A stretch of 64,000 bases of DNA from Mobula hypostoma (lineage: Eukaryota). A program made the translations under genes and the position numbers. Under the pieces are notes generated by a model that had not been told where the DNA came from, did not search any database, and saw nothing but the letters and a program-made list of their open reading frames with translations. The DNA is taken from the NCBI RefSeq assembly GCF_963921235.1, contig NC_086097.1:132434001-132498000 (forward strand), read 5' to 3'. This document shows positions 1,591 to 62,746 of this stretch, one piece after another; the first letter of the stretch is position 1, and each line of letters begins with the position of its first letter.

Positions 1591-1959
1591 CACCAGTTCT
1601 TGATTCCCTTTGGGTATCTCATTTTCCTGCCATTTCTTTACTCTGCATATACTGTATAGTATCAGGAATATTCTTTTGTGTCCGCCGATGGTCTGACATT
1701 CATTCTTTTGTGTTCTGTTAGCATCACATATGGAACTTCATCACAATATGAATAGATCATATTCACCATACTCAGAGGAAAAGTTCTATGGACAACTTAT
1801 TCTTTTGTTCTGTGATCTGCCTATTTCTTATCAGAAAATTTCCATAGAGTTCCAAAAGTTTTGCTCTATCACAAGGATGTTGCCTGCTTTTATTTTTCTT
1901 AAACAAGAGGACCATGAGCTGGAAATGTGCTCCTTCTATGGCATTCAGTTACCTTGACA

Positions 1960-2700
1960 TTATTATTTAAATAGTAAAAACAAATTGCAGCACGCTGCTG
2001 TGCAGAGGGACCTGGGAGTGATTGTGCGTAAATCACAAAAGGTTGGCTTGCAGGTGCAGCAGGCTACCAAGAAGGCAAATAGAATGTGGCCTTCATTGCT
2101 AGAGGGATTGAATTTAAGAGCAGGGAGGTTATGCTCCAACTCTACAGGGTGTGCAGTACTGGCCTCCCTACTTGAGGAAGGATATACTGGTTTTGGAGGT
2201 GGTGCAGAGGAGGTTCACTAGGTTGATTCCAGAGATGAGGGGGTTAGTGTATGAGAAGAGATTCAGCTGCCTGGGACTGTACTCACTGGAATTCAGAAGA
2301 AAGATAGGAAATCTTATAGCAACACATAAAATTATGAAAGGGATAGATAAAAAAGAGGCAAGAAAGTTGTTTCAATTAGTAGGTGAGACTAGAACTAGGG
2401 GACATAGCCTCAGGATTGGCGGAGTAGATTTAGGACGGAGATGAGGAGGAACTGCGTTTCCCAGAGAGTGGTGAATCTGTGGAGTTCTCTGCCCATTGAA
2501 GCAGTGGAGGCTACCTCAGTAAATATATTTAAGACAAGTTTGGATAGATTTTTGCATAGTCAGGGAATTAAGGGATATGGGGAAAAGGCAGGTAGGTGGA
2601 GATGAATCCCTGGCTAGATCAGGCATGATCTTATTGAATGGTTGAGCAGGCTCAATGGTCCAAATGGCCTACTCTTGCTCCTATTTCTTATGTTCTTATG
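1960..2700 (+). mobile_element. 5'-truncated CR1 LINE
   Basis: VQRDLGV, QYWPPYLRKDILVLEVVQRRFTRLIP, TRTRGHSL peptides; TCTTATGTTCTTATG tail. Confidence 0.9.
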
Positions 2701-4431
2701 TTGACATCAGAAGTGTCATACAAAACACAAACAATAGCTCAAATCAGTCTGGACTACTCTTCCCTTACTTTCCTCTTGTCCTGGCCCCATAACTACACTC
2801 ACCTCCACTTTTGTGTGGCTTCCAGTATCCTGAAAGCTCCATTACGCAGCCCTTCCATGAAGCAGAGTGGTCTTCGAGTGGCAATTAAGCCTCAGGCAGT
2901 GAAAACTGAAGCTTTATTTCCAGAAGCCTTGCTAGCTTCTAGTTGCTCAAAACATTGTTAGTGTATCTGAGTATCTCTGATAACCTATGGAAGCAAGTGA
3001 AGAATATTTAACCAATTACCAAAAAAGATATAACAACTTTTGAAACGCAATTAACTAATATAAAACAATGAAAATATTGGCATTAATTCAAACGAAAACA
3101 CACCACTGAACATTTAACTGAATGTCGGCAACACGATTAAAACAGCTGGGGCTGCACTTGATCCAATATCGTGTAAAACTGAAGGGCCAGGTACAAAACG
3201 TATATAAAACCTTGGTCCAGATAGGCACAGAACATCTCTGGACTCAACCGTGAGTCCAGAGCAGAGCAAGGGATCAGGCGTACTTGTAACAGACCTCTGG
3301 CATGTTCAGTACTGTTGCAGTACCAAATGTAGGCACAGACGTTCAGAACATGGTGACATGTGAACCAAATACTCGGCTGTTCTTTGCTCAGCATGATCCT
3401 TATCTCATGTGCTTAATACATGAACAAATGAATAAGTGTTTGCCACAAAGTTTCTTTGTGAAGCACATCACATAGCAAAAGTTTTTTTCCTGATTTATTA
3501 CTGTTATTACTGTTACATTTCAGAACACTGGACAGAACTCTCTGTTTGGGGGTATTCTGGGGTTATGTGAATATAGCAGATGCTAAATCAGACAAAACCA
3601 ATCTTTCTTATTGTAAATTTCAAGCAGTAAATTGAAGTTAAAAGTACAGCTGGCCCACAGTCTTAAGGTTACGTCCACACTAGACCGGATAAATCCGTAA
3701 CCGAAGCTTTTTCGCTTCGTTTTGACCCTCCGTCCACACTGAAATGGCGTCTTCCTCCCCCGAAAACGGAGCTTTTCTAAAACGCTCGCCGGAGTGTTTA
3801 AATCTGAAAACGCAGGTTGGGTGGTGTGGTGTACGGGGTAACCGGAGCTTTTTAAAAATGCCGTCATGACGTGTCCAAACAGATGGTGGCGGGAGCGCAG
3901 CATCTCATTGTTTTCTTGAATGCAGCCTCCAACACCACAACAACAATACCTGACAATAGATGTGTAACAGCCTAATGTAACATTGTATGGAAATACAAGA
4001 TAACACTGATGCAGACATGTTTTATACATTTAACGAAGTGCTTTATTAATGTATTGCCTGTGCAAACATTCAATAGATGCAATTGTCACTACTTCCAAAT
4101 TGTCATTTTTAAGTGGTAGCTTATATTTGGCATAGACGTGAAAATGTTAAGGCCAAAAAAGGAAAATTGTAAGTTTCATTTTCACTCAGGTAAAAATACA
4201 ACCACTTTTGCCCAGTAACTCATCTTATTGCACATGTAAAAATACAGCAAAATAATACAGAAAGACATGGCAAAAGGAAAGGCAAATAAATGAGGTAACA
4301 GCAAATTTCACTTTTGCCCAGTAACAAGCCTTATTGCATTTAGTTGTAGCTGTCGTCCCTTTCATCGGTGAAGAGACTATGGCTGTAGGAAATGTTTCCA
4401 GGGTGACCCCTCTGTGGGAGTGAGGAAGATG

Positions 4432-6597: not shown

Positions 6598-8506
6598 GAA
6601 ACATAGAAACATAGAAAATAGGTGCAGGAGTAGGCCATTCAGCCTTTCGAGCCTGCACCGCCATTTATTATGATCATGGCTGATCATCCAACTCAGAACC
6701 CTGCACCAGCCTTCCCTCCATACCCCCTGATCCCCGTAGCCACAAGGGCCATATCTAACTCCCTCTTAAATATAGCCAATGAACTGGCCTCAACTGTTTC
6801 CTGTGGCAGAGAATTCCACAGATTCACCACTCTCTGTGTGAAGAAGTTTTTCCTAATCTCGGTCCTAAAAGGTTTCCCTTTATCCTCAAACTGTGACCCC
6901 TCATTCTGGACTTCCCCAACATCGGGAACAATCTTCCTGCATCTAGCCTGTCCAATCCCTTTAGGATTTTATATGTTTCAATCAGATCCCCCCTCAATCT
7001 TCTAAATTCCAACGAGTACAAGCCTAGTTCATCCAGTCTTTCTTCATATGAAAGTCCTGCCATCCCAGGAATCAATCTGGTGAACCTTCTTTGTACTCCC
7101 TCTATGGCAAGGATGTCTTTCCTCAGATTAGGGGACCAAAACTGCACACAATATTCCAGGTGTGGTCTCACCAAGGCCTTGTACAACGGCAGTAGTACCT
7201 CCCTGCTCCTGTACTCGAATCCTCTCGCTATAAATGCCAGCATACCATTCGCCTTTTTCACCGCCTGCTGTACCTGCATGCCCACTTTCAATGACTGGTG
7301 TATAATGACACCCAGGTCTCGTTGCACCTCCCCTTTTCCTAATCGGCCACCATTCAGATAATAATCTGTTTTCCTATTTTTGCCACCAAAGTGGATAACT
7401 TCACATTTATCCACATTAAATTGCATCTGCCATGAATTTGCCCACTCACCCAACCTATCCAAGTCACCCTGCATCCTCTTGGCATCCTCCTCACTGCTAA
7501 CACTACCGTCCAGTTTCGTGTCATCCGCAAACTTGGAGATGCTGCATTTAGTTCCCTCATCCAAGTCATTAATATATATTGTAAACAACTGGGGTCCCAG
7601 CACTGAGCCTTGCGGTACCCCACTAATCACTGCCTGCCATTCTGAAAAGGTCCTGTTTATTCCCACTCTTTGCTTCCTGTCTGCTAACCAATTCTCTATC
7701 CACATCAATACCTTACCCCCAATACCGTGTGCTTTAAGTTTGCACACTAATCTCCTGTGTGGGACCTTCTCAAAAGCCTTTTGAAAATCCAAATATATCA
7801 CATCCACTGGTTCTCCCCTATCCACTCTACTAGTTACATCCTCAAAAAATTCTATGAGATTCGTCAGACATGATTTTCCTTTCTCAAATCCATGCTGACT
7901 TTGTCCGATGATTTCACCGCTTTCCAAATGTGCTGTTATCACATCTTTGATAACTGACTCCAGCAGTTTCCCCACCACCGACGTTAGGCTAACCGGTCTA
8001 TAATTCCCCGGTTTCTCTCTCCCTCCTTTTTTAAAAAGTGGGGTTACATTAGCCACCCTCCAATCCTCAGGAACTAGTCCAGAATCTAACGAGTTTTGAA
8101 AAATTATCACTAATGCATCCACTATTTCTTGGGCTACCTCCTTAAGCACTCTGGGATGCAGACCATCTGGCCCTGGGGATTTATCTGCCTTTAATCCCTT
8201 CAATTTACCTAACACCACTTCCCTATTAACATGTATTTCGCTCAGTTCCTCCATCTCACTGGACCCTCTGTCCCCTACTATTTCTGGAAGATTATTTATG
8301 CCCTCCTTAGTGAAGACAGAACCAAAGTAATTATTCAATTGGTCTGCCATGTCCTTGCTCCCCATAATCAATTCACCTGTTTCTGTCTGTAGGGGACCTA
8401 CATTTGTCTTTACCAGTCTTTTCCTTTTTACATATCTATAAAAGCTTTTACAGTCAGTTTTTATGTTCCCTACCAGTTTTCTCTCATAATTTTTTTCCCC
8501 TTCCTA
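6598..8506 (-). mobile_element. Young 5'-truncated CR1 LINE
   Basis: (GAAACATA)n tail at 6598-6616 on the + strand; ATTTA duplicated at 6593-6597 and 8507-8511. Confidence 0.93.
6824..8371 (-). CDS. CR1 ORF2 reverse transcriptase fragment (515 aa open, no endonuclease)
   Basis: KSPGPDGLHPRVLKE, NYRPVSLTS, GVPQGSVLGP, KFADD, RPHLEYCVQFW motifs; frameshift near the C-terminus. Confidence 0.9.
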   Translation of the reverse strand: MIMGSKDMADQLNNYFGSVFTKEGINNLPEIVGDRGSSEMEELSEIHVNREVVLGKLKGLKADKSPGPDGLHPRVLKEVAQEIVDALVIIFQNSLDSGLVPEDWRVANVTPLFKKGGREKPGNYRPVSLTSVVGKLLESVIKDVITAHLESGEIIGQSQHGFEKGKSCLTNLIEFFEDVTSRVDRGEPVDVIYLDFQKAFEKVPHRRLVCKLKAHGIGGKVLMWIENWLADRKQRVGINRTFSEWQAVISGVPQGSVLGPQLFTIYINDLDEGTKCSISKFADDTKLDGSVSSEEDAKRMQGDLDRLGEWANSWQMQFNVDKCEVIHFGGKNRKTDYYLNGGRLGKGEVQRDLGVIIHQSLKVGMQVQQAVKKANGMLAFIARGFEYRSREVLLPLYKALVRPHLEYCVQFWSPNLRKDILAIEGVQRRFTRLIPGMAGLSYEERLDELGLYSLEFRRLRGDLIETYKILKGLDRLDAGRLFPMLGKSRMRGHSLRIKGNLLGPRLGKTSSHREW

Positions 8507-10019
8507 ATTTAAAATTATGAGGGGGATAGACAGAGCTGATATGGATAGGATTTTTCCATTGAGAGTGGGGGAGATTCAAACAAGAGGACATGAGTTGAGA
8601 GTTAAAGGACAAAAGTTTAAGGGTAACATGAGGGGAAACTTCTTTACTCAGAGTGGTGGCTGTGTGGAACGAGCTTCCAGCAGAAGTGGTTGAGGCAAGT
8701 TCGATGTTGTCATTTAAACTTAAATTGGATAGCTATATGGACAGGAAAGGAATGGAGGGTTATGGGCTGAGCGTGGGTTGGTGGGACTAGGTGAGTGTAA
8801 GAGTTCGGCACACACTAGAAGGGCCGAGATGGCCTGTTTCCATGCTGTAATTGATATATGGTTATATGGTTAAATGAGCACCAAGTCTTTCGTTTGGCAA
8901 TTTCCTTTTAAGTTTTTCTAGTCTGTAACTGGACAAACACGCACCAAGTATACCATTTCCTCTTTGCTTGTTTTCTGTAGATGTGTCCTGTGCATGCCCA
9001 GTAGGAGGAGAGTCACCCAAATACCTGTTTTAATGTTGACGGAGATATTTTCAAAAATGCCTGGTGTGGACGCCAGCTTTATGCAAAGCCGGCATTTCCA
9101 AAATTATCCAGTCTAGTGTGGACGTAGCCTAAGAGGTATGTTTTGGAAAATGGTGACCACGAGATGTTTGCATATGCATCAGCCTAACAAGACACTGGGG
9201 ATATGTTAATTGCCCTGGATCATCTATGAGTTTAAGCAATTTGTAACATTGTTACAATGTGAACATTGTGTAAGTTCAAGGAAGTTTGCAATTAGTTTGG
9301 CTCAGGCAAGGCATCTGAACATTCAGATGTGTCTACTGCAGTAGATATGCAATTCAAAGGAAGCATTGCCAACCCAAAGTATTGAAGTGAACGATGTAAT
9401 TGTAACTACTGAAGCTGTATTGAACACCTACTGTTAGCATTGATCTTAAGGGTATAAAAATGTGATGTACTTTGAGATTAGGAGACTTTAACATGAGTGT
9501 CTCCACAAGAATGCCTGTTTGTTGTGATCAATAAAGATGACTATATCACTAGCTTAGTGTCTCTCCGTTGACCTCAATCACAGTCACAACAAAACCAACA
9601 AGGGGTGACATCCATGTTAGAACTTCGGTGGAATAACTTCAAAATACTTTGAAGAAATCGTTGGATTTTGCATAAGAAGCAGAGGCAGGAATGACCACAT
9701 TGGCCATTGATCTTGTTCTGCCATACAGGCCAATCTTTTTCTCGGCATTTATTTACCTCAATCTCCAGGAACTTGTCTATCAGGCCTTGAATCTACTCAG
9801 TGACTCAGCTTTCTCTGGAAAATTCATCTTTATCTCAGTCATAAGTGGCTGACCCATGACCCATCCAAATTTTGGATGCCTTTACAAGGTGGGAATATCT
9901 TTATTGGTCTATCCTGTTGCACCCCAGCTGAATTTAGAATTTCAATGTGATCACATTTCAGTTTTCTAAAATCCTGGCAATATTGGCCTATTCTGTTTAA
10001 GTTATCCTGATAAGACAAA

Positions 10020-20896: not shown

Positions 20897-21914
20897 TCTC
20901 TAAATAAGTTGAAATAAAATAAAATAAAGTATACTTCTGCCACAAAAAACACACTTCACACTATATGCCCTTAATATTAAACCTGATTCTGATTCTAAAG
21001 TATTTCTGTCTGTCTCTTCCACAGCCAACTGCATATAAACCTGTGGTTTTTAAATTCATTGAAGAAATTTGGTTCTTTGGAGATGTCAATAGATCCTGGG
21101 ATATTGGCGAGGGATATTGTTCGTGTACTGCCTGAGTGAAAGTTATCATATAAGGTAATCACACCATCTTACTCTTTTATCTGCCTTTGTGTAGTTGCTT
21201 TTGGATTTGTGCATCTAAGTTTCTTTATCCAAGACTCTGCTTCTTTCCAATTTATTAAATTCTTCTTCCACTTAGGTCTTCAAGGAATAAATAACCATCT
21301 CAGGTCTGTATGAGACTTGTTTGACCCTAGGTTTTGTCGATGTATCATGTGTAAGAGTCTGCAAAGAGGAACTTGTTGTATCTATGCTAGCCACAAACAA
21401 ATCCTTCCAGTTATATTTTGCTCTCACAAACTAATCTTTACCCAACAGAATCATTCATCATAACCTACCACAATGTAACTTGATACTTAGGCCATTATAA
21501 CATGCTGTTGGATCCAATTGTTATTTTCTTTGCAGTTTAATAATTAATTGTCAGCTTGTATTTTAAGTAGTTCTTATATACATGTTTATTATGTTTCCTA
21601 GTGGTAATAGTATGTATATGCAGTAGTCCAGCGTATTACATTGGTATACTTCTGGAAAGCTCTGGAAGTCTCCCTTGGTGCTGCATTATTTGCATAAGGG
21701 ATCTTTCATTGGTTGATTTTTATCTGTCAATTTGAATGGAATTTTTCTTTATCTATGATATAAATATAGCTGACTGCAAGGTAGAGTCATGTTAATTATT
21801 AGTCTTTTTGTATATTTGCTTCTATCTCCCCTTGCTTAGCAGACCTCTATCACTGCCTATTTCAATTTTCCTTTGTTTTATCAACAATGCAAACAAAAAA
21901 CGATTGTGAAGCAA

Positions 21915-22512
21915 ACACGAAGAAATCTGCCTATGCTGGAATTTCAAGCAACACACACAAAAAAATGCTGGTGAACGCAACAGGCCAGGCAGCATCTCTA
22001 GGAAGAGGTACAGTCGATGTTTCGGCCCAAGACCCTTTGTCAGGACTAACTGAAAGAAGAGCTAGTAAGAGATTTGAAAGTGGGAGTGGGAGGGGGAGGG
22101 GGAGATCCGAGATGATAGGAGAAGACAGGAGAGGGAGGGATGGAGCTAAGAGCTGGAAAGTTGATTGGCAAAAGGGATATGAGGCTGGAGAAGGCAGAGG
22201 ATCATGGGACGGGAGGCCTAGGGAGAAAGAAAGGAGGAGGGGGAAGCCCAGACGATGGGCAAGGAGTCCCATCCCATGATCCTCTCCCTTCTCCAGCCTC
22301 ATATCCCTTTTGCCAATCAACTTTCGGAATCCCTCCCCCTCCTGCCTTCTCCTATCATTTCGGATATACCCCTTCCCCCTCCCACTTTCAAATCTCTTAC
22401 TATCTCTTCTTTCAGTTAGTCCTGATGAAGGGTCTCAGCCCGAAACATCGACTGTACCTCTTTCTATAGATACTGCCTGGCCTGCTGCATTCACCAGCAT
22501 TTTTTCTGTGTG
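21915..22512. mobile_element. Fold-back Penelope-like element remnant
   Basis: Inverted arms (about 21955-22110 vs 22350-22512); 15-bp TSD ACGATTGTGAAGCAA/ATGATTATGAAGCAA (21900-21914, 22513-22527). Confidence 0.85.
22418..22453 (+). ncRNA. Minimal hammerhead ribozyme motif (Penelope-associated, stem III mutated)
   Basis: AGTC-CTGATGA-A-GGG(TCTCAG)CCC-GAAA-CATC-GACT. Confidence 0.65.
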
Positions 22513-22583
22513 ATGATTATGAAGCAACAGGTTTTGTGCCTCTTCCAAAAGAACCTTGGATTAAAACATCAGAATCTAACAAT

Positions 22584-22601
22584 TGGCATAGTCAGCAGGA
22601 T
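22584..22601 (+). promoter_or_regulatory. Primer-binding site, tRNA-Ser
   Basis: TGGCATAGTCAGCAGGAT matches 16/18 of the complement of the vertebrate tRNA-Ser 3' end (TGGCGTAGTCGGCAGGAT); both mismatches are CpG decay; lies 2 nt after the LTR. Confidence 0.9.
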
Positions 22602-22799
22602 GATTGTGAAGTTTAAGGACTTAAAATAATCACAGAGAAGTGGAAAATTTTCAGCCTCTAAACAAAAGGGGTAAGGACTTCTGTTTCAATTTGGCTGAGA
22701 AAAACTTCATTCTGGCTTCAATACTTCGTCAAAATTAAGAGTGAGGAAACTACTGTGCTGCTATTTAAAAAAAAAACAGATCTGTAAAAATATCAGTTG

Positions 22800-23020
22800 C
22801 AATCCATTTCAGTTTCAGGATAATCAATTTTGATTGCACGGCAATCCATTTCGGTTGCAGGACAATGTATTTTGGTCACATGGCAATCTATTTCGGTTGG
22901 ACAGCAATCCATTTGGTACCTAGTAAAATTATTATGGTTGCGCAATCTACTCACTTACAATCTATTTCGTTTGCAGGACAATCTATTTTGGTTGCAGGAC
23001 AATCTATTCATTTGAAGGAC
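22800..23020 (+). repeat. 21-bp minisatellite in the ERV leader
   Basis: Consensus CAATCTATTTCGGTTGCAGGA; units start at 22800, 22821, 22842, 22863, 22884, 22905, then 22958, 22979, 23000. Confidence 0.85.
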
Positions 23021-23639
23021 AGCTTATTCCTTTGCAATCTATTAATATTTTGTCATGGTCAAAGTAATGAGAAGTACATACAAATTAAGAACAAACCAAA
23101 ACAATGGTTAAATTTGTGAGAGCTACTAAGAGCTCTTACCTGAATAAAACATCTCAGTTTGATTAAATTAACTAAAAGGTCTGTACAAAATATACCAACA
23201 ATGTTAAATTTATTAAGAATACAAAGGAATGTGATAAGAGAATGCCTGAGGGAGAGGAAAAACCTGGAATCTCAGCATTAAAGATAAGGCATAGTCGGTT
23301 TGATTGTACATGTGAATGAACGAAGAAGTTAACAGAGTGAGTAAAAGCTTTTACTAATTGATTGTGAAAGAAACACGAAACTTGCGATAAACTACTAAAA
23401 CAGCAAGATTGAGATAGTAAAAAGTCTAAAGAGCAAATCTCTGCACTAACTGAACAAGCAGAAAAATAACACTAATTGAATTGAAGTGCATTGTACGGAG
23501 CTCAGAAGCAAACTGAAACAATATGGAGAAACTGAACAGGGATGTCAATGGGATGGTCCTGCTAGTGAACTATCTGGTGACACTGCCAGTAACATTACTT
23601 CTGAAGCTCCACATTGGAAAATACCCCTGACATTGAACA

Positions 23640-23795
23640 GACCCCAGAAACAATGGCACCTTCTGAACTCTGAGGAATTACCACCCACGTTAGACGTTCT
23701 CCCAAGACAGCGACACCATCTGAACTCCAAAGAATTACAGCCTATGTTGGACCGTGCACTGAGACAGTAGCACCATTTGAATGCTGAGGAATGGA
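23640..23795 (+). repeat. 57-bp tandem repeat (about 3 units) in the ERV gag region
   Basis: CACC(A/T)T(C/T)TGAA anchor at 23657, 23714 and 23771 (period 57). Confidence 0.75.
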
Positions 23796-23889
23796 CTCTA
23801 CAGCACACCCTAGTGACTCAAGTGAGGACGACAGTGATGAAACAATAAGATTGACAGCTATGTTACAGTTTGCTCCAATGAAGGCCAAG

Positions 23890-26530
23890 GGAGTGTCCAT
23901 TGCCAATAAATGTATTGACAAGTTAATTCCTTTAGTAGCAGATCCATCAACTATTTTCATTGCCTGAAGCAATAACACAAGTGATTGATATGCCTGATAT
24001 ATTTTGGTCAGTACCACTGGTACTTGAATGTCAACCATGGTTGGTTTTCACAGTTGATGGTCAACACTACAAGTGGACAAGGTTCCAACAACGGCTCCAC
24101 TACAGTCCCACTGTCTATCATATGGCTTTGAGAGAACATCTGAGGGACTTATCAGCCATTGGTTCAAGCATCATGCAATATGTGAATAATGTCCTGACTG
24201 CATCTGAAGTTGCAGACCTACATGAATATTATGTGCTCAATTTGTTTGATTACATATCCTCCAAAAGTCATAAAGCAAATCTAGACAAGGCACCATTGCA
24301 ACAAGAAGAAGCAATTTACTTAGGACAGGAAATTTCTCAAGGTAAGTGGGAAATCACTGAGCATCATGCAAAAGTCTATTGCTATTATGCCTATTTATTT
24401 ATATTTGCATTTGCATGGTTCGTTGTCCATTGATCCTGTTTACAGTTACTGTTCTATAGATTTGCTAAGTACGCCTGCAGAAAAAGAATCTCCGGGTTGT
24501 AGGTTGTGACATGTATGTACTCTGATAATAAATTTTACTTTGAACTTTGAACTTTGAACTTTAAAAAGCTGTTAATTTGACAAAACCTCCTACAATAGTT
24601 TACCAGCTGAGTTGTTTCTACCAACTTGTTATTTCTGAGTTTATGCATTTACAACCGAACATGGGTCAATTCATATGCTGAAATTGCTCAACCACTGAAC
24701 AATCTGCAAACATTTAGATAACCCTGTGTTTCTTGATGAAGAACAACAGAAATCTTTTCAAAACTTATAGGTGGCATCGTGCATTGCATCTGAGCTAGGA
24801 ATCACCAAAGCAGGTAAACTATTTACCCTATATGTCAGTGAGAAGCGTGGCTAAATGACGGCGGTCACACCTCAAGAACATGGAGACCTACAGCGTCCTG
24901 CTGGTTACTACTCTGCTAAATTGGATAATGTAGCATTAGGATGAGGTCCATGTTTGTGAGTGGTGCAGGCAACCCATCTGGCAGTCATGGTTGTTTCTAG
25001 CATTGTGCTTAGACAAGTTTTAAATATTCAATGTCCACACTCAGCATACACTTTACTAACTATGAATAGGGACTTCTCAGGTAACAGCTGCTCAGTGGGT
25101 CAACTGGTCTACTGTTCCTGAGGCACCTAATATCATCATTCAATGAGTGAGTCTAGTGAATACAGCTACACTTACCATCAGACATGGAAGACTATGATAA
25201 CCATGACTGTGAAAGAATAATAACATTACATGATGATGCAAATTATTGCAAAGAACCACCTTTATTGAACCCAGATCTGATCCTGTGCACTGATGGCACC
25301 TCAATGATTGAGAGAGAAATTTGACCGGCTGGATGAGCCATTGTTTCTGGATCTGAAGTGCTGGCATCAGAAGACATGGCACCTGGTATCTCTACACAAC
25401 ACATAGAAGTAAGAGCTTTGATTGAAGCCTTTAAGTTGGGGAAGGAAAATCTGCTCATATCTACCTTGATTCTTGATATGCTTTCAGAGATATTCATGAT
25501 TTTGGAAACTTAATGGACACAAGAAGTATTTGTTACAGCTGTAGGAACATCAAACAAGGATGGCCAACTAGTACAAGAACTTAAAGATGTCATACAACTG
25601 ATGTCAGAAGTTTCTGTATTAAAATGTAAAAGCCACTCCAAAGTGACTGCGACAGAAAGCCGTGGAAATGTATTTGTGGATGAAAATGCAGAAAGGAAGG
25701 GGTCAGAGAAATAAAAGAAGTTCCAAGAGCATAAACAATGAACCTGAAAACTGGAATTATGGAAACTATGTTGAACCCTGTACCACAGTTGAATATGCAA
25801 GATATTCGAAAAATGCAAGCTTAGTGCTCTAGTCAGGAAAAGTGGAAAAGTGGTTCTGAATAGCGGGAGGTTAAACAGTGATGGACTATGGAGATATGGC
25901 CACTAGCCATAGACTAGTTACTTCCTTTTCTGGCACAGCATATACACTTCCTATGACACATTGGAGTGCAAAAGATGATCGACAGATTCTCCCAATGGTT
26001 GTGGAATCCAAAGTTCAGAGCACAAGCTCGACTAACTTTTAAAAGATGCATGAAACATTAGTAAACAAATCCTGGCCCAGTGGAAAAGCTGCCACAATTA
26101 AGAGCTCCTGTCTCACCTGGTCCATTTTTACATCTTCAAGTGGACTGCATTTCTTTACCAAAGTGTCAAGGATACTCAGACATACTCGTAACAGTGGACA
26201 ACTTTTCAAGATGGGTGGAAGCTATTCCAACAAAGGAAGTCACTGCCACACACACAGCAAAAGCTCTGATTAAGGACCACATTCCTCGATGGGGATTGCC
26301 AGGTTACCTTGACTCTGACCAAGGAACACATCTCATTGGGAGTGTTTGTGAGGATTTATGTCAACTGATGAACATTGAGTGGTCTTTGCATTGTCCACAA
26401 CACCCAGAATCATCAGAACAAGTCAAATGAATGATTGAAACCATCAAACAATGACTGACTAAGTATCATGAGGAAGGTATACCATGGCCTATGGCTCTTT
26501 CTATAGTGTTATGTAGCATCAGAGCAACCT
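23890..26530 (+). pseudogene. pol: Degenerate retroviral pol (RT, tether, RNase H, integrase)
   Basis: DIFWSVPL..YKWTRFQQRLHYSP..QYVNNVL (YVDD-derived); RPAGYYSAKLDNVALG; LCTDGTS..RGNVFVD; GPFLHLQVD..FSRWVEAIPT..PRWGLP..DSDQGTH. Confidence 0.9.
24375..24562 (+). mobile_element. Short Rex/Babar-type 3' tail insertion in pol
   Basis: Ends GATAATAAATTTTAC(TTTGAAC)n; pol resumes afterwards. Confidence 0.7.
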
Positions 26531-26639
26531 TTTTCATTTGTTCTATCAACACTTAATAAAATGATCCTGAAGGAACAAGTTTTGTGCCTCTTTCCTGACT
26601 TCTGAAAGAACTTTGGATTTAAAACATCAAAATCCAACA
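26530..26639 (+). repeat. ERV 3' LTR remnant (R-U5)
   Basis: AATAAA 26555-26560; homologous to the 5' LTR end; joined directly to truncated integrase. Confidence 0.85.
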
Positions 26640-27454
26640 ATGCCATACACTGAATCAGTCCCAAGACCTTCACATGTCCTCCTGAATAAATCTTGAGACT
26701 GTAAAGGCCCCTTTTCAGTAAAGCCAACTTATCTTCCCAAAATTGTCCTTTTCCCTAATGAGTCTAATAAATTGCCTTCAGTTCACACTGGGAATTTAAA
26801 GTTCAGTTGGCTCAGGTTGATTGTAGTACAAACGTTCTGTGACCCCTGCAGATCTTGTAATGAAGTACAGCCACCTATTTGAGGCTTTATGCAAGGGATC
26901 TATCCTCAATGTTGCTGCTGCACATTCCTACCTGTGTTTAGATTTAAAGACTTGCTATACTTCCTTCTGCTTGAAATCTATTTCTGTTTTATCTGACGAG
27001 TTAATTGGCAACATTTAATTACCTGTGGCATGGACAACAGATTCTAAATCGATAGGCATGGGAAATAGGGAAAACTGTAGGGCTACAGGGGAAAATGAGA
27101 TTGATGGGTATGTTGGAAGCTAGCATAGATCCAAAGGGCTGAATGGCCTTCTGCTGGCATGTGAGCTGCCATTTTATTTTATTTTCCCTAATAAAAGGCT
27201 TGTAATTCTCAAGCTCTCATCATATCTCTCATTTTTGTTTCAGTATGTTGCAGACTAATACTACCAGCCTTGCTTTAATTTTAACTTTACACAGCCACAG
27301 AGCCAGCATGGGCAAGTTGGGCTGAAGGGCCTATTTCCCTGCTCTATGCCTTTAGAGTGACTGCTGTTTTGTAAAGCTACATCCCTCCCCAGCTTCAATC
27401 TTTGAGCTGACTCATGAGAGTGAATCCATTGAACAGTTTTGAATTTTGCTTTCA

Positions 27455-61070: not shown

Positions 61071-61629
61071 TGTCTTATGCTCTTATGGTCAAATTATCCA
61101 TCTGCATATTTGCAACGTTATTGTCTGATCATTATTGCATATTGCTTACTTCTTATGTAATCTTCCTGTGCACAAATCATGTATCTCCACACCAGATGCA
61201 CATCAGAAATAATTTATTGGCTGCAGAATAGTTGGTACTTGAATGAAAGTAGCACAACAGCAATATTTTGGTCCAATAATCCCAAGGTCAAGATTGACAA
61301 TCAAGGACCTGTGTTCAAATTTCCACACTGAGTTATAATTATTTAGGTGGTTTCTGTGCAATCTGTGGCTTGTTGGGTGTCATCTCTCATGCTGATCACT
61401 CTAAGGTCGCTGTGAAAGAACAGCCTTTTGGTCCACGATATCTGTGCCAATCATGAGGCCAAATGAAAATGCTGCCTTTGACCTGCACTGGACCTCTGTA
61501 CCCTGTTCCACACCTACTCATGTAACCATCCCAAAACCTGTTAAATGTCACTATTTTTATTCCTACCCCTGGCAGTGCGTTCCATATACCTACCCCTCTC
61601 TGTGTAAAAGACTTGTGCCACATACCCCC

Positions 61630-62746
61630 AGCAACAGAAAATCTGCAGATGCTGGAAATCCAAGCAACACATGCAAAATGCTGGAGGAACTCAGCAGGCC
61701 AGGCAGCACCCATGGAAAAAAAGTACAGTCAGTGGGCCAAAACCCTTTGGAAGGACTAGAGGAAAAAAAGCTGAGGAGTAGATTTAAAAGGTGGGAGGAG
61801 GGGAGAGGGAAACACCGGGTGATAGGTGAAACCAGCACAGAATTCTCCGCAACTTCTGCTATCTCCAATGGGATCCCACCACCAATCACATCTTTTCCTC
61901 CCTCCCAGTTTCTACTTTCCACAGGGATCGCTCCCTATGCGACTCCCTTGTTCATTCGCCCCTCCGCACTGATCTCCCTCCTGGTACTTATCCTTGCAAG
62001 CAGAACAAGTGCTATATCTCCCTCTACACCTCCTCCCTCAATACCTTTCAGGGCACTAAACAGTCCTTCCAGGTGAGGCAACACTTCACCTATGAGTCTG
62101 CTGGGGGTCGTTTACTGTGTTCGGTGCTCTCGATGTGGCCTCCTGTATATCGGTGAGACCCGACATAGATCGGGAGGTCGCTTTGCCAAGCATCTATGCT
62201 CTGTCTGCCAGAATAAGTGTGAATCTCCCAGTGGCCACCCATTTTAATTCCACTTTCCATTCTCATTCCGATATGTTCATCCATGGCCTCCTCCACTATC
62301 GTGATGAGCCACATTTAGGTTGGAGGAACAACACCTTATATTCTGTTTGGGTAGCCTCCAAACTGATAGCATGAACATGGGTTTGTCAAACATTTGGTAA
62401 TGCCCTCCACCCCCCACTTCACCATTCCCCACCCCCTTTTCCATCTCTCACCTTATCTCATTGCCTGCCCATCACTTCCCTCTGGTGCTCTTCCCTCCCT
62501 TTTTCTTTTTTCCATGGCCTTCTGTCTCTTTCACCAATCAACTTCCAAGTTTATTCATCCCTCCCCCTCCAGTTTTCCCCTATCAGCTTGTGTATCTCTT
62601 TCCCCTCCCTCCACCTTTTAAATCTACTCCTCAGCTTTTTTTTTCTCCAGTCCTGCCAAAGGTTTTCGGCCCAGAACGTCGACTGTTCTTTTTTCCATAG
62701 ATGCTGTCTGGCCTGCTGAGCTCCTCCAGCATTTTATGCATGTTGC
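61630..62746 (+). mobile_element. Penelope-like element with inverted 5' arm, inserted in a minus-strand CR1 3' end
   Basis: GVVYCVRCSRCGLLYIGETR GIY-YIG motif; inverted arm 61630-61830; TSD CCACATA(C/T)CCCC (61618-61629, 62747-62758). Confidence 0.9.

What the first reader, a model, noticed from the sequence alone, without database searches (positions are those of the whole stretch)
21502..26643. Fully delimited endogenous retrovirus with a tRNA-Ser primer site in a probable cartilaginous fish
Seen: ATGC|TGTTGGAT...ATCCAACA|ATGC ends, homologous LTR ends, a 16/18 tRNA-Ser PBS, and RT, tether, RNase H and integrase remnants in retroviral order. Known: a tether plus a second RNase H separates retroviruses from Gypsy elements, and 4-bp TSDs fit class I. 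Inference: the pol motifs look epsilon-like, but walleye dermal sarcoma virus primes with tRNA-His, so a Ser PBS may mark a separate and possibly undescribed lineage. Best novelty candidate in the window, although this copy is dead.
Basis: partly seen in the sequence, partly recalled or inferred. Interest (0 to 1): 0.72.

Follow-up and report, generated by a model that had tools for sequence, protein, structure and literature searches.

The report
Ancient dead fish retrovirus family copy
This is one broken, heavily deleted copy of an old, abundant retrovirus family in a cartilaginous-fish genome; the same insertion is present in at least six other sampled organisms, and the family likely spread partly as crippled copies borrowing enzymes from complete ones, which is a known pattern.

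Summary
The ERV is real. The 4-bp ATGC duplication, TG…CA ends, the 16/18 match to host tRNA-Ser(AGA) and the RT–tether–RNase H–integrase order all check out. Only its ends are complete: capsid, nucleocapsid, protease, the RT start, integrase tail, env, PPT and about three quarters of the 3' LTR are deleted.

It belongs to a large, old family (1,387–1,630 LTR candidates; median LTR-pair divergence 0.19). Sister copies show protease, a PPT and gamma-type env remnants. Many unlinked copies share deletion junctions, so defective templates were likely copied in trans. A junction of this insertion is bridged in 6 of 8 other organisms tested.

Pol trees place it in a strongly supported fish class I clade with anchovy, alewife, cavefish, cod and gar ERVs, sister to gamma + walleye epsilon + a probable SSSV; grouping with walleye viruses is rejected (AU p=0.02). 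The Ser PBS is family-wide but a weak lineage marker. Published surveys already report such epsilon-like clades in cartilaginous fish; I could not test membership in their named clades. The scan's notes showed no earlier report of this family. Verdict: new member of a known kind.

The parts
21502..21505 (+). left 4-bp target-site duplication ATGC
   Evidence: family-wide 4-bp duplications
21506..22581 (+). 5' LTR (about 470 bp in solo copies), interrupted by a later insertion; putative TATA box at 21759-21764 (inferred)
21895..22513 (.). later fold-back (palindromic) repeat inside the 5' LTR; Penelope-like by a recalled hammerhead core motif, not tested; absent at the orthologous site in organisms E, F and J
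   Evidence: inverted repeats; contigs joining ~21900 to 22515; Rfam gave only below-threshold hairpin hits
22584..22601 (+). primer-binding site for tRNA-Ser(AGA), 16/18
22800..23021 (+). leader with 21-bp tandem repeats
   Evidence: partly shared with copies L090 and L082
23130..23895 (+). decayed 5' part of gag (inferred from position and sharing with other copies; no Pfam hit), with a 57-bp triple repeat at 23633-23792
23895..23902 (+). junction of a ~1.5-2 kb deletion removing the rest of gag, protease and the RT start; primary junction shared with 7 other copies, with a further small loss here
23902..24706 (+). RT remnant (P0001 residues 199-402), frameshifted, catalytic motif decayed, split by an insertion
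24377..24625 (+). later insertion of a high-copy repeat ending in (ACTTTGA)n, probably a LINE 3' end (inferred)
   Evidence: very high depth
24711..25179 (+). tether (connection) domain remnant
25196..25711 (+). RNase H remnant
   Evidence: 42% to P0001; no Pfam hit in the one frame sent
25795..26529 (+). integrase remnant (zinc-binding region and core); C-terminal domain deleted
26531..26639 (+). last ~110 bases of the 3' LTR with AATAAA at 26555-26560; joined directly to integrase by a deletion private to this locus
26640..26643 (+). right 4-bp target-site duplication ATGC

Best explanation
It is a dead, multiply deleted provirus of an old, high-copy class I retrovirus family with a tRNA-Ser primer site and 4-bp target duplications, and it was likely copied from an already gag/protease-deleted template using enzymes supplied by a complete relative. 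Shown: the anatomy; fuller sister copies with protease, PPT and gamma-type env remnants; deletion junctions shared by unlinked copies; placement in a fish class I clade outside the walleye epsilonretroviruses; presence of the same insertion in other organisms. Inferred sequence of events: (1) a gag-pro-pol-env retrovirus entered the germ line; (2) deleted genomes that kept LTRs, PBS and PPT were packaged and reverse-transcribed in trans, and recombined, in a burst of copying; (3) one gag/pro-deleted genome integrated here; (4) afterwards a local deletion removed the integrase tail, env, PPT and most of the 3' LTR, and two unrelated repeats inserted. Nothing suggests a present function.
For: Shared gag|RT junction in 8 copies aligned, including this one. 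A tether|RNase H deletion at window 24919-24920 (6 of 7) and 25273-25293 (7 of 7) in other copies. Two env deletions shared by 11 and by 3 copies. These copies were picked by eye from the 32 loci L051-L082, and the deletions occur in mixed combinations. Integrase DNA tree of 34 copies is star-like, with end branches ~0.11 and median pairwise K2P 0.27. Copies with the same LTR, Ser PBS and protease exist (L185, L187, L195). PPT precedes the 3' LTR in 6 of 9 copies shown. The 3' junction is private: of the 40 scored matches (221 candidates), none but the window itself spans it. Trees. Orthologues.
Against: Copies were sampled by similarity to this one, so the share of deleted versus complete copies is unknown. 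The integrase tree does not resolve deletion classes into clades (26 of 31 inner branches open), so shared templates rest on junction identity alone. Env deletion breakpoints agree only to within ~10-25 bases. No Pfam capsid or zinc-knuckle hit was obtained from 3 fuller copies. The window's fragments fill only 14-25% of tree columns and have long end branches.
Confidence: 0.8

Rival explanations
1. All deletions happened after integration: a complete infectious provirus inserted here and decayed, and the family spread only by reinfection.
For: The 3' deletion is private to this locus. Fuller copies with protease and env remnants exist. Chen et al. found that high-copy anamniote ERVs mostly keep env (passage).
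Against: The same gag|RT junction occurs in 8 copies at separate genomic places, and one pol junction is identical to the base in 3 copies. Independent decay would not repeat breakpoints.
Confidence: 0.1
2. It is a proper epsilonretrovirus (walleye group) that merely switched primer tRNA.
For: Class I placement; the literature calls most fish class I ERVs epsilon-like; PBS switches are common.
Against: Fragments score about half as well against walleye viruses as against the teleost clade (integrase 103-112 vs 199-258 bits). The AU test rejects clade + walleye viruses (p=0.0185) and clade + walleye + L167 group (p=0.0087), on a quick tree without the mixture model. The env remnant resembles gamma-type env and gave no hit to the walleye env.
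Confidence: 0.07
3. It is a Gypsy-type LTR retrotransposon or an ERV-S/L class III element, since HERV-S also uses tRNA-Ser (recalled).
For: The decayed fragments alone hit foamy Pol best in the PDB, weakly (E~1e-7). The Ser PBS is shared with HERV-S (recalled).
Against: Tether plus second RNase H; P0001 is far closer to MLV RT; Gypsy, foamy, SnRV and bird class III-like rows fall outside the starred class I clade; the TSD is 4 bp, not 5.
Confidence: 0.02

Closest known systems
Unnamed class I ERVs of bony fish (Coilia grayii KAL2103890.1, Alosa pseudoharengus XP_076118486.1, Astyanax mexicanus KAG9281519.1, a Gadus morhua cluster, Lepisosteus oculatus W5NLS4) and unnamed P0001/P0003
   Same: One starred clade in Pol trees (100/99); 39-60% protein identity to the best-scoring clade members even from decayed fragments; same Pol domain order.
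   Different: Those proteins are intact; this family is fossil. Their PBS, TSD and env were not obtainable; metagenome contig L200 showed no Ser PBS and is itself deleted.
Epsilonretrovirus (WDSV, WEHV-1/2; L163, L158, L162, identified by length, PBS and tree position, names recalled)
   Same: Class I Pol; fish host.
   Different: Not the same clade; L163 has a His-type PBS; gamma-type env here; no accessory genes noticed (not searched systematically).
SSSV/ZFERV group (L167, probably SSSV; identity recalled, not confirmed)
   Same: Gamma-type env TM: 40% over 47 residues, E=3e-8 pairwise; fish class I.
   Different: Separate Pol branch; L167 Pol is ~220 residues longer, while copy L195 runs from protease into RT with no insert relative to P0001.
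Published epsilon-like clades: clade Mu (Xu et al. 2018, PMC6001957), Pol-LE.1/LE.2/LGE.1 (Chen et al., 10.1101/2021.11.23.469661), CmiERV II/III (Han 2015, PMC4422223), 'ancestor-type' class I DrERVs (PMC8672886)
   Same: Class I ERVs of cartilaginous and bony fish with gamma-type env and no accessory genes; the zebrafish paper describes most class I elements as basal to gamma and epsilon, as found here.
   Different: Membership untested: their sequences lie in supplements and figures I could not use. None of the passages read reports a PBS type or shared-deletion subfamilies.
Non-autonomous and env-less ERV derivatives (e.g. VL30, ETn, IAP deletion classes; env-less 'superspreaders'; recalled)
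   Same: Deleted genomes with cis signals amplified in trans; env loss in many copies.
   Different: Several independent deletion classes recombined in one much older fish family.

Membership tests
Retroviridae (ERV) | LTRs with TG…CA ends and a short target duplication | tested here: met
Retroviridae (ERV) | 18-nt PBS complementary to a host tRNA 3' end | tested here: met
   16/18 here; 10 of 13 5'-LTR copies not selected by PBS are within 5 mismatches; host tRNA-Ser(AGA) genes
Retroviridae (ERV) | RT, tether, RNase H, integrase order | tested here: met
Retroviridae (ERV) | env gene | tested here: met
   Absent from this copy; remnants in L055 and L061; no Pfam env hit
Retroviridae (ERV) | capsid and nucleocapsid in gag | tested here: inconclusive
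   Deleted here; no Pfam hit in 3 fuller copies
Class I ERV | Pol groups with gamma/epsilon viruses | tested here: met
   100/98; 97
Class I ERV | 4-bp TSD (recalled as typical) | tested here: met
Class I ERV | gamma-type env (immunosuppressive domain plus CX6CC) | tested here: inconclusive
   Decayed immunosuppressive domain and terminal CC in L055 and L061; L061 keeps CX6CC spacing
Epsilonretrovirus (strict) | Pol clade with WDSV/WEHV | tested here: not met
   AU p=0.0185
Epsilonretrovirus (strict) | accessory genes and non-gamma env | tested here: inconclusive
   env is gamma-like; accessory genes not searched systematically
Clade Mu / Pol-LE / Pol-LGE / CmiERV II-III | grouping with the published reference sequences | not testable with these tools
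   Reference sequences not available as tool sequences; bioRxiv supplements are closed
Curated Dfam/Repbase ERV1 family | high full-length identity to a library entry | not testable with these tools
   No such library is offered
Ty3/Gypsy | RT inside Gypsy; single RNase H | tested here: not met
ERV-S/L or SnRV-like (class III) | Pol groups with class III; 5-bp TSD (recalled) | tested here: not met

The most novel reading that the evidence does not exclude
This family is a fossil of a deep class I lineage, sister to all gamma- and epsilon-like retroviruses, that has not been delimited in print, crossed between cartilaginous and bony fish, and still has intact members in teleosts. Its orthologous insertions, more than twice as old as the ~8% splits between the organisms that share them, would give one of the oldest direct calibration points for class I retroviruses.
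Probability: 0.25. Interest if true: 0.55.

Novelty: new member of a known kind. Interest (0 to 1): 0.3.

Why it matters
Cartilaginous-fish retroviruses are thinly sampled (6 genomes in the DIGS survey; 13 in Wang and Han). This family adds a large, old member of a basal class I clade, with orthologous insertions usable for dating and a clear case of deleted genomes spreading in trans in a fish. None of this changes how retroviruses are understood to work, and this copy has no sign of function.

Tried and rejected
Viral-contig scan with the decayed integrase found nothing. PDB searches with the decayed fragments ranked foamy first at weak E-values and were set aside in favour of the intact relative. 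Pfam did not recognise env, RNase H, capsid or nucleocapsid in decayed frames. The ESM Atlas gave only generic RT/RNase H clusters. The metagenome scan gave 3 loci, none with a Ser PBS or a clear LTR-PBS junction, so the clade-wide primer is unknown. Rfam gave only below-threshold microRNA hairpin hits on the palindrome. No RNA holder was listed, which says nothing on expression. The idea that L070 shares this copy's 3' deletion was dropped: its integrase breakpoint differs by ~55 bases and it is a near-duplicate of L073. Eight paper searches showed no paper on this family or on Ser-primed fish class I ERVs; subscription papers such as Basta 2009 and Hayward 2015 were not seen. Eleven rows were dropped before the tree and more, for run time. 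No ZFERV, Xen1, CmiERV, HERV-S/L or lokiretrovirus reference could be obtained.
Full report
Observation. The element runs from 21506 to 26639 between two ATGC copies. The 5' LTR ends at 22581 and is followed by a PBS at 22584-22601. Host tRNA-Ser(AGA) genes were found (9 pattern matches, 6 of 6 checked called Ser-AGA). The PBS matches their 3' end plus CCA at 16 of 18 bases; across 18 copies the commonest mismatches in the first 12 positions are at the two CpG sites, as expected from methyl-C decay. Of 13 5'-LTR copies not selected by PBS, 10 are within 5 mismatches, two keep only a Ser-like start and one was mislocated by my script. Mapped on the intact relative P0001, the window holds residues 199-217, 229-402, 408-563, 570-741 and 758-1004 in shifting frames. 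Missing are capsid, nucleocapsid, protease, the RT start, the integrase tail, env, PPT and all but ~110 bases of the 3' LTR. Two later repeats interrupt it.

Family. The genome is 3.48 Gb. The LTR had 1,387 and 1,630 first-look candidates, 40 scored each time, at 70-80% and 87-92% identity; these are not copy numbers. TSDs are 4 bp (6 of 20 exact, 14 of 20 within one mismatch, 0 of 20 exact at 5 or 6 bp). Fuller copies with the same LTR and PBS carry protease and full RT (L185, L187, L195). Others carry env remnants with an immunosuppressive domain and CC motif (L055, L061) and a PPT. All family copies examined are decayed. Ten LTR pairs give K2P 0.12-0.23, median 0.19 (local alignments, CpG not masked). 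The integrase tree of 34 copies is star-like with two subfamilies.

Mechanism. Among the 32 loci L051-L082 plus the window, I found four recurring deletions: gag-to-RT in 8 copies including this one; tether-to-RNase H in 7, identical to the base in 3; and two env deletions in 11 and 3 copies. They occur in mixed combinations. The copies lie at separate genomic places, mostly on different contigs, and differ by ~0.27, so shared templates copied in trans, with recombination, is the simplest reading (inference). This copy's own 3' deletion is not spanned by any other of the 40 scored matches. A genome without a PPT and U3 could not yield a provirus with a complete 5' LTR (established retrovirology), so that loss followed integration.

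Age. Public contigs of other organisms hold the same locus. Of 8 runs laid, one per organism, 5 bridge the left junction (B, E, F, G, J) and 4 the right (B, C, G, J) by at least 31 bases per side: 6 of 8 in all, from a truncated table. The private 3' junction is spanned in G and I, so it is old too. The palindromic insert is absent in E, F and J. These orthologues differ from the window by ~1-8%, so the LTR divergence of 0.19 is about 2.3 times the deepest split sampled. With Han's assumed 2.2e-10 per site per year (PMC4422223) this gives ~430 My, which looks too old; with an assumed 1e-9 it gives ~95 My. Only 'very old' is safe.

Placement. The RT fragment found one homologue, P0001 (56%). 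P0001's nearest named relatives are teleost and gar proteins at 59-64%. Reference retroviruses came from IMG/VR and were named by length, PBS and recall: L163 WDSV (His-type PBS), L130 SnRV (Arg-type PBS), L131 MLV, L158/L162 WEHV, L167 probably SSSV. All four window fragments, entered as separate rows, fall in one starred clade with P0001 and the bony-fish ERVs (100/99 for the two fragments kept). That clade is sister to gamma + walleye + L167 groups (100/99; 99 under the mixture model). AU tests reject joining it to the walleye viruses (p=0.0185) or to walleye + L167 group (p=0.0087). Taxon sampling is thin and the root rests on long branches.

Comparison with print. Han 2015 (part 1 of 2 read) found one SnRV-like and two epsilon-like lineages in elephant shark. 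Xu 2018 (passages and section 7) put epsilon-like ERVs of nearly all jawed vertebrates in clade Mu and noted many lineages outside known genera. Chen et al. (part 1 of 6 and passages) found gamma-type-env ERVs in 6 cartilaginous fish and named Pol-LE.1, LE.2 and LGE.1. The zebrafish survey (passages) calls most class I elements ancestor-type to gamma and epsilon. Vargiu 2016 (section 10) shows PBS type is unstable. PMC4977317, PMC10699275, PMC10435555, PMC11089739 and PMC12690878 were read as passages only. Supplements and figures were not seen and may already contain this clade. Other notes of this scan call the host a ray and describe a different ERV with a 2H domain between protease and RT; the host was not tested here, and copy L195 of this family shows no such insert.

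Verdict. A real, well-delimited but gutted ERV from a large ancient class I family. New member of a known kind; interest 0.3.

Noticed in passing
L083-L089 (e.g. L087:4987-6600, L084, L083): A younger ERV family, 42-47% integrase identity to this one with long open frames. In L083, L084 and L087 the match jumps from protease/RT start (P0001 ~183) to ~730, i.e. RT and RNase H appear deleted; L088 has an env remnant near 8390-8900.
   Followed up: partly
L086:~1950-3000 (+): An open frame that reads like a chemokine receptor (recalled resemblance, not tested), about 1.5 kb upstream of a copy of the younger ERV family (translation printed).
   Followed up: no
L070 and L073 (G000:C59, ~67.83 and 67.98 Mb): Two family copies nearly identical over integrase (distance ~0.02), so a local duplication; L070 has its own integrase-to-LTR deletion ending near the same LTR position as the window's.
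   Followed up: partly
G000:C45:46.4-46.8 Mb and C62:54.4-54.55 Mb: Clusters of near-equal hits to this family, suggesting tandem segmental duplications carrying an ERV copy.
   Followed up: no
window:21895-22513: The fold-back repeat carries a CTGATGA…GAAAC hammerhead-like core (recalled as a Penelope hallmark); related copies lie at window ~35000, ~45000 and ~61600-62700. It post-dates the split from organisms E, F and J.
   Followed up: partly
L200 (metagenome contig, 8140 nt): A bony-fish-clade relative with an open gag-to-tether fusion frame lacking protease and most of RT, followed by an env-like frame: a similar deletion architecture in another host.
   Followed up: partly
window:19803-20829: Frames just upstream resemble LINE remnants by eye; not examined.
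   Followed up: no
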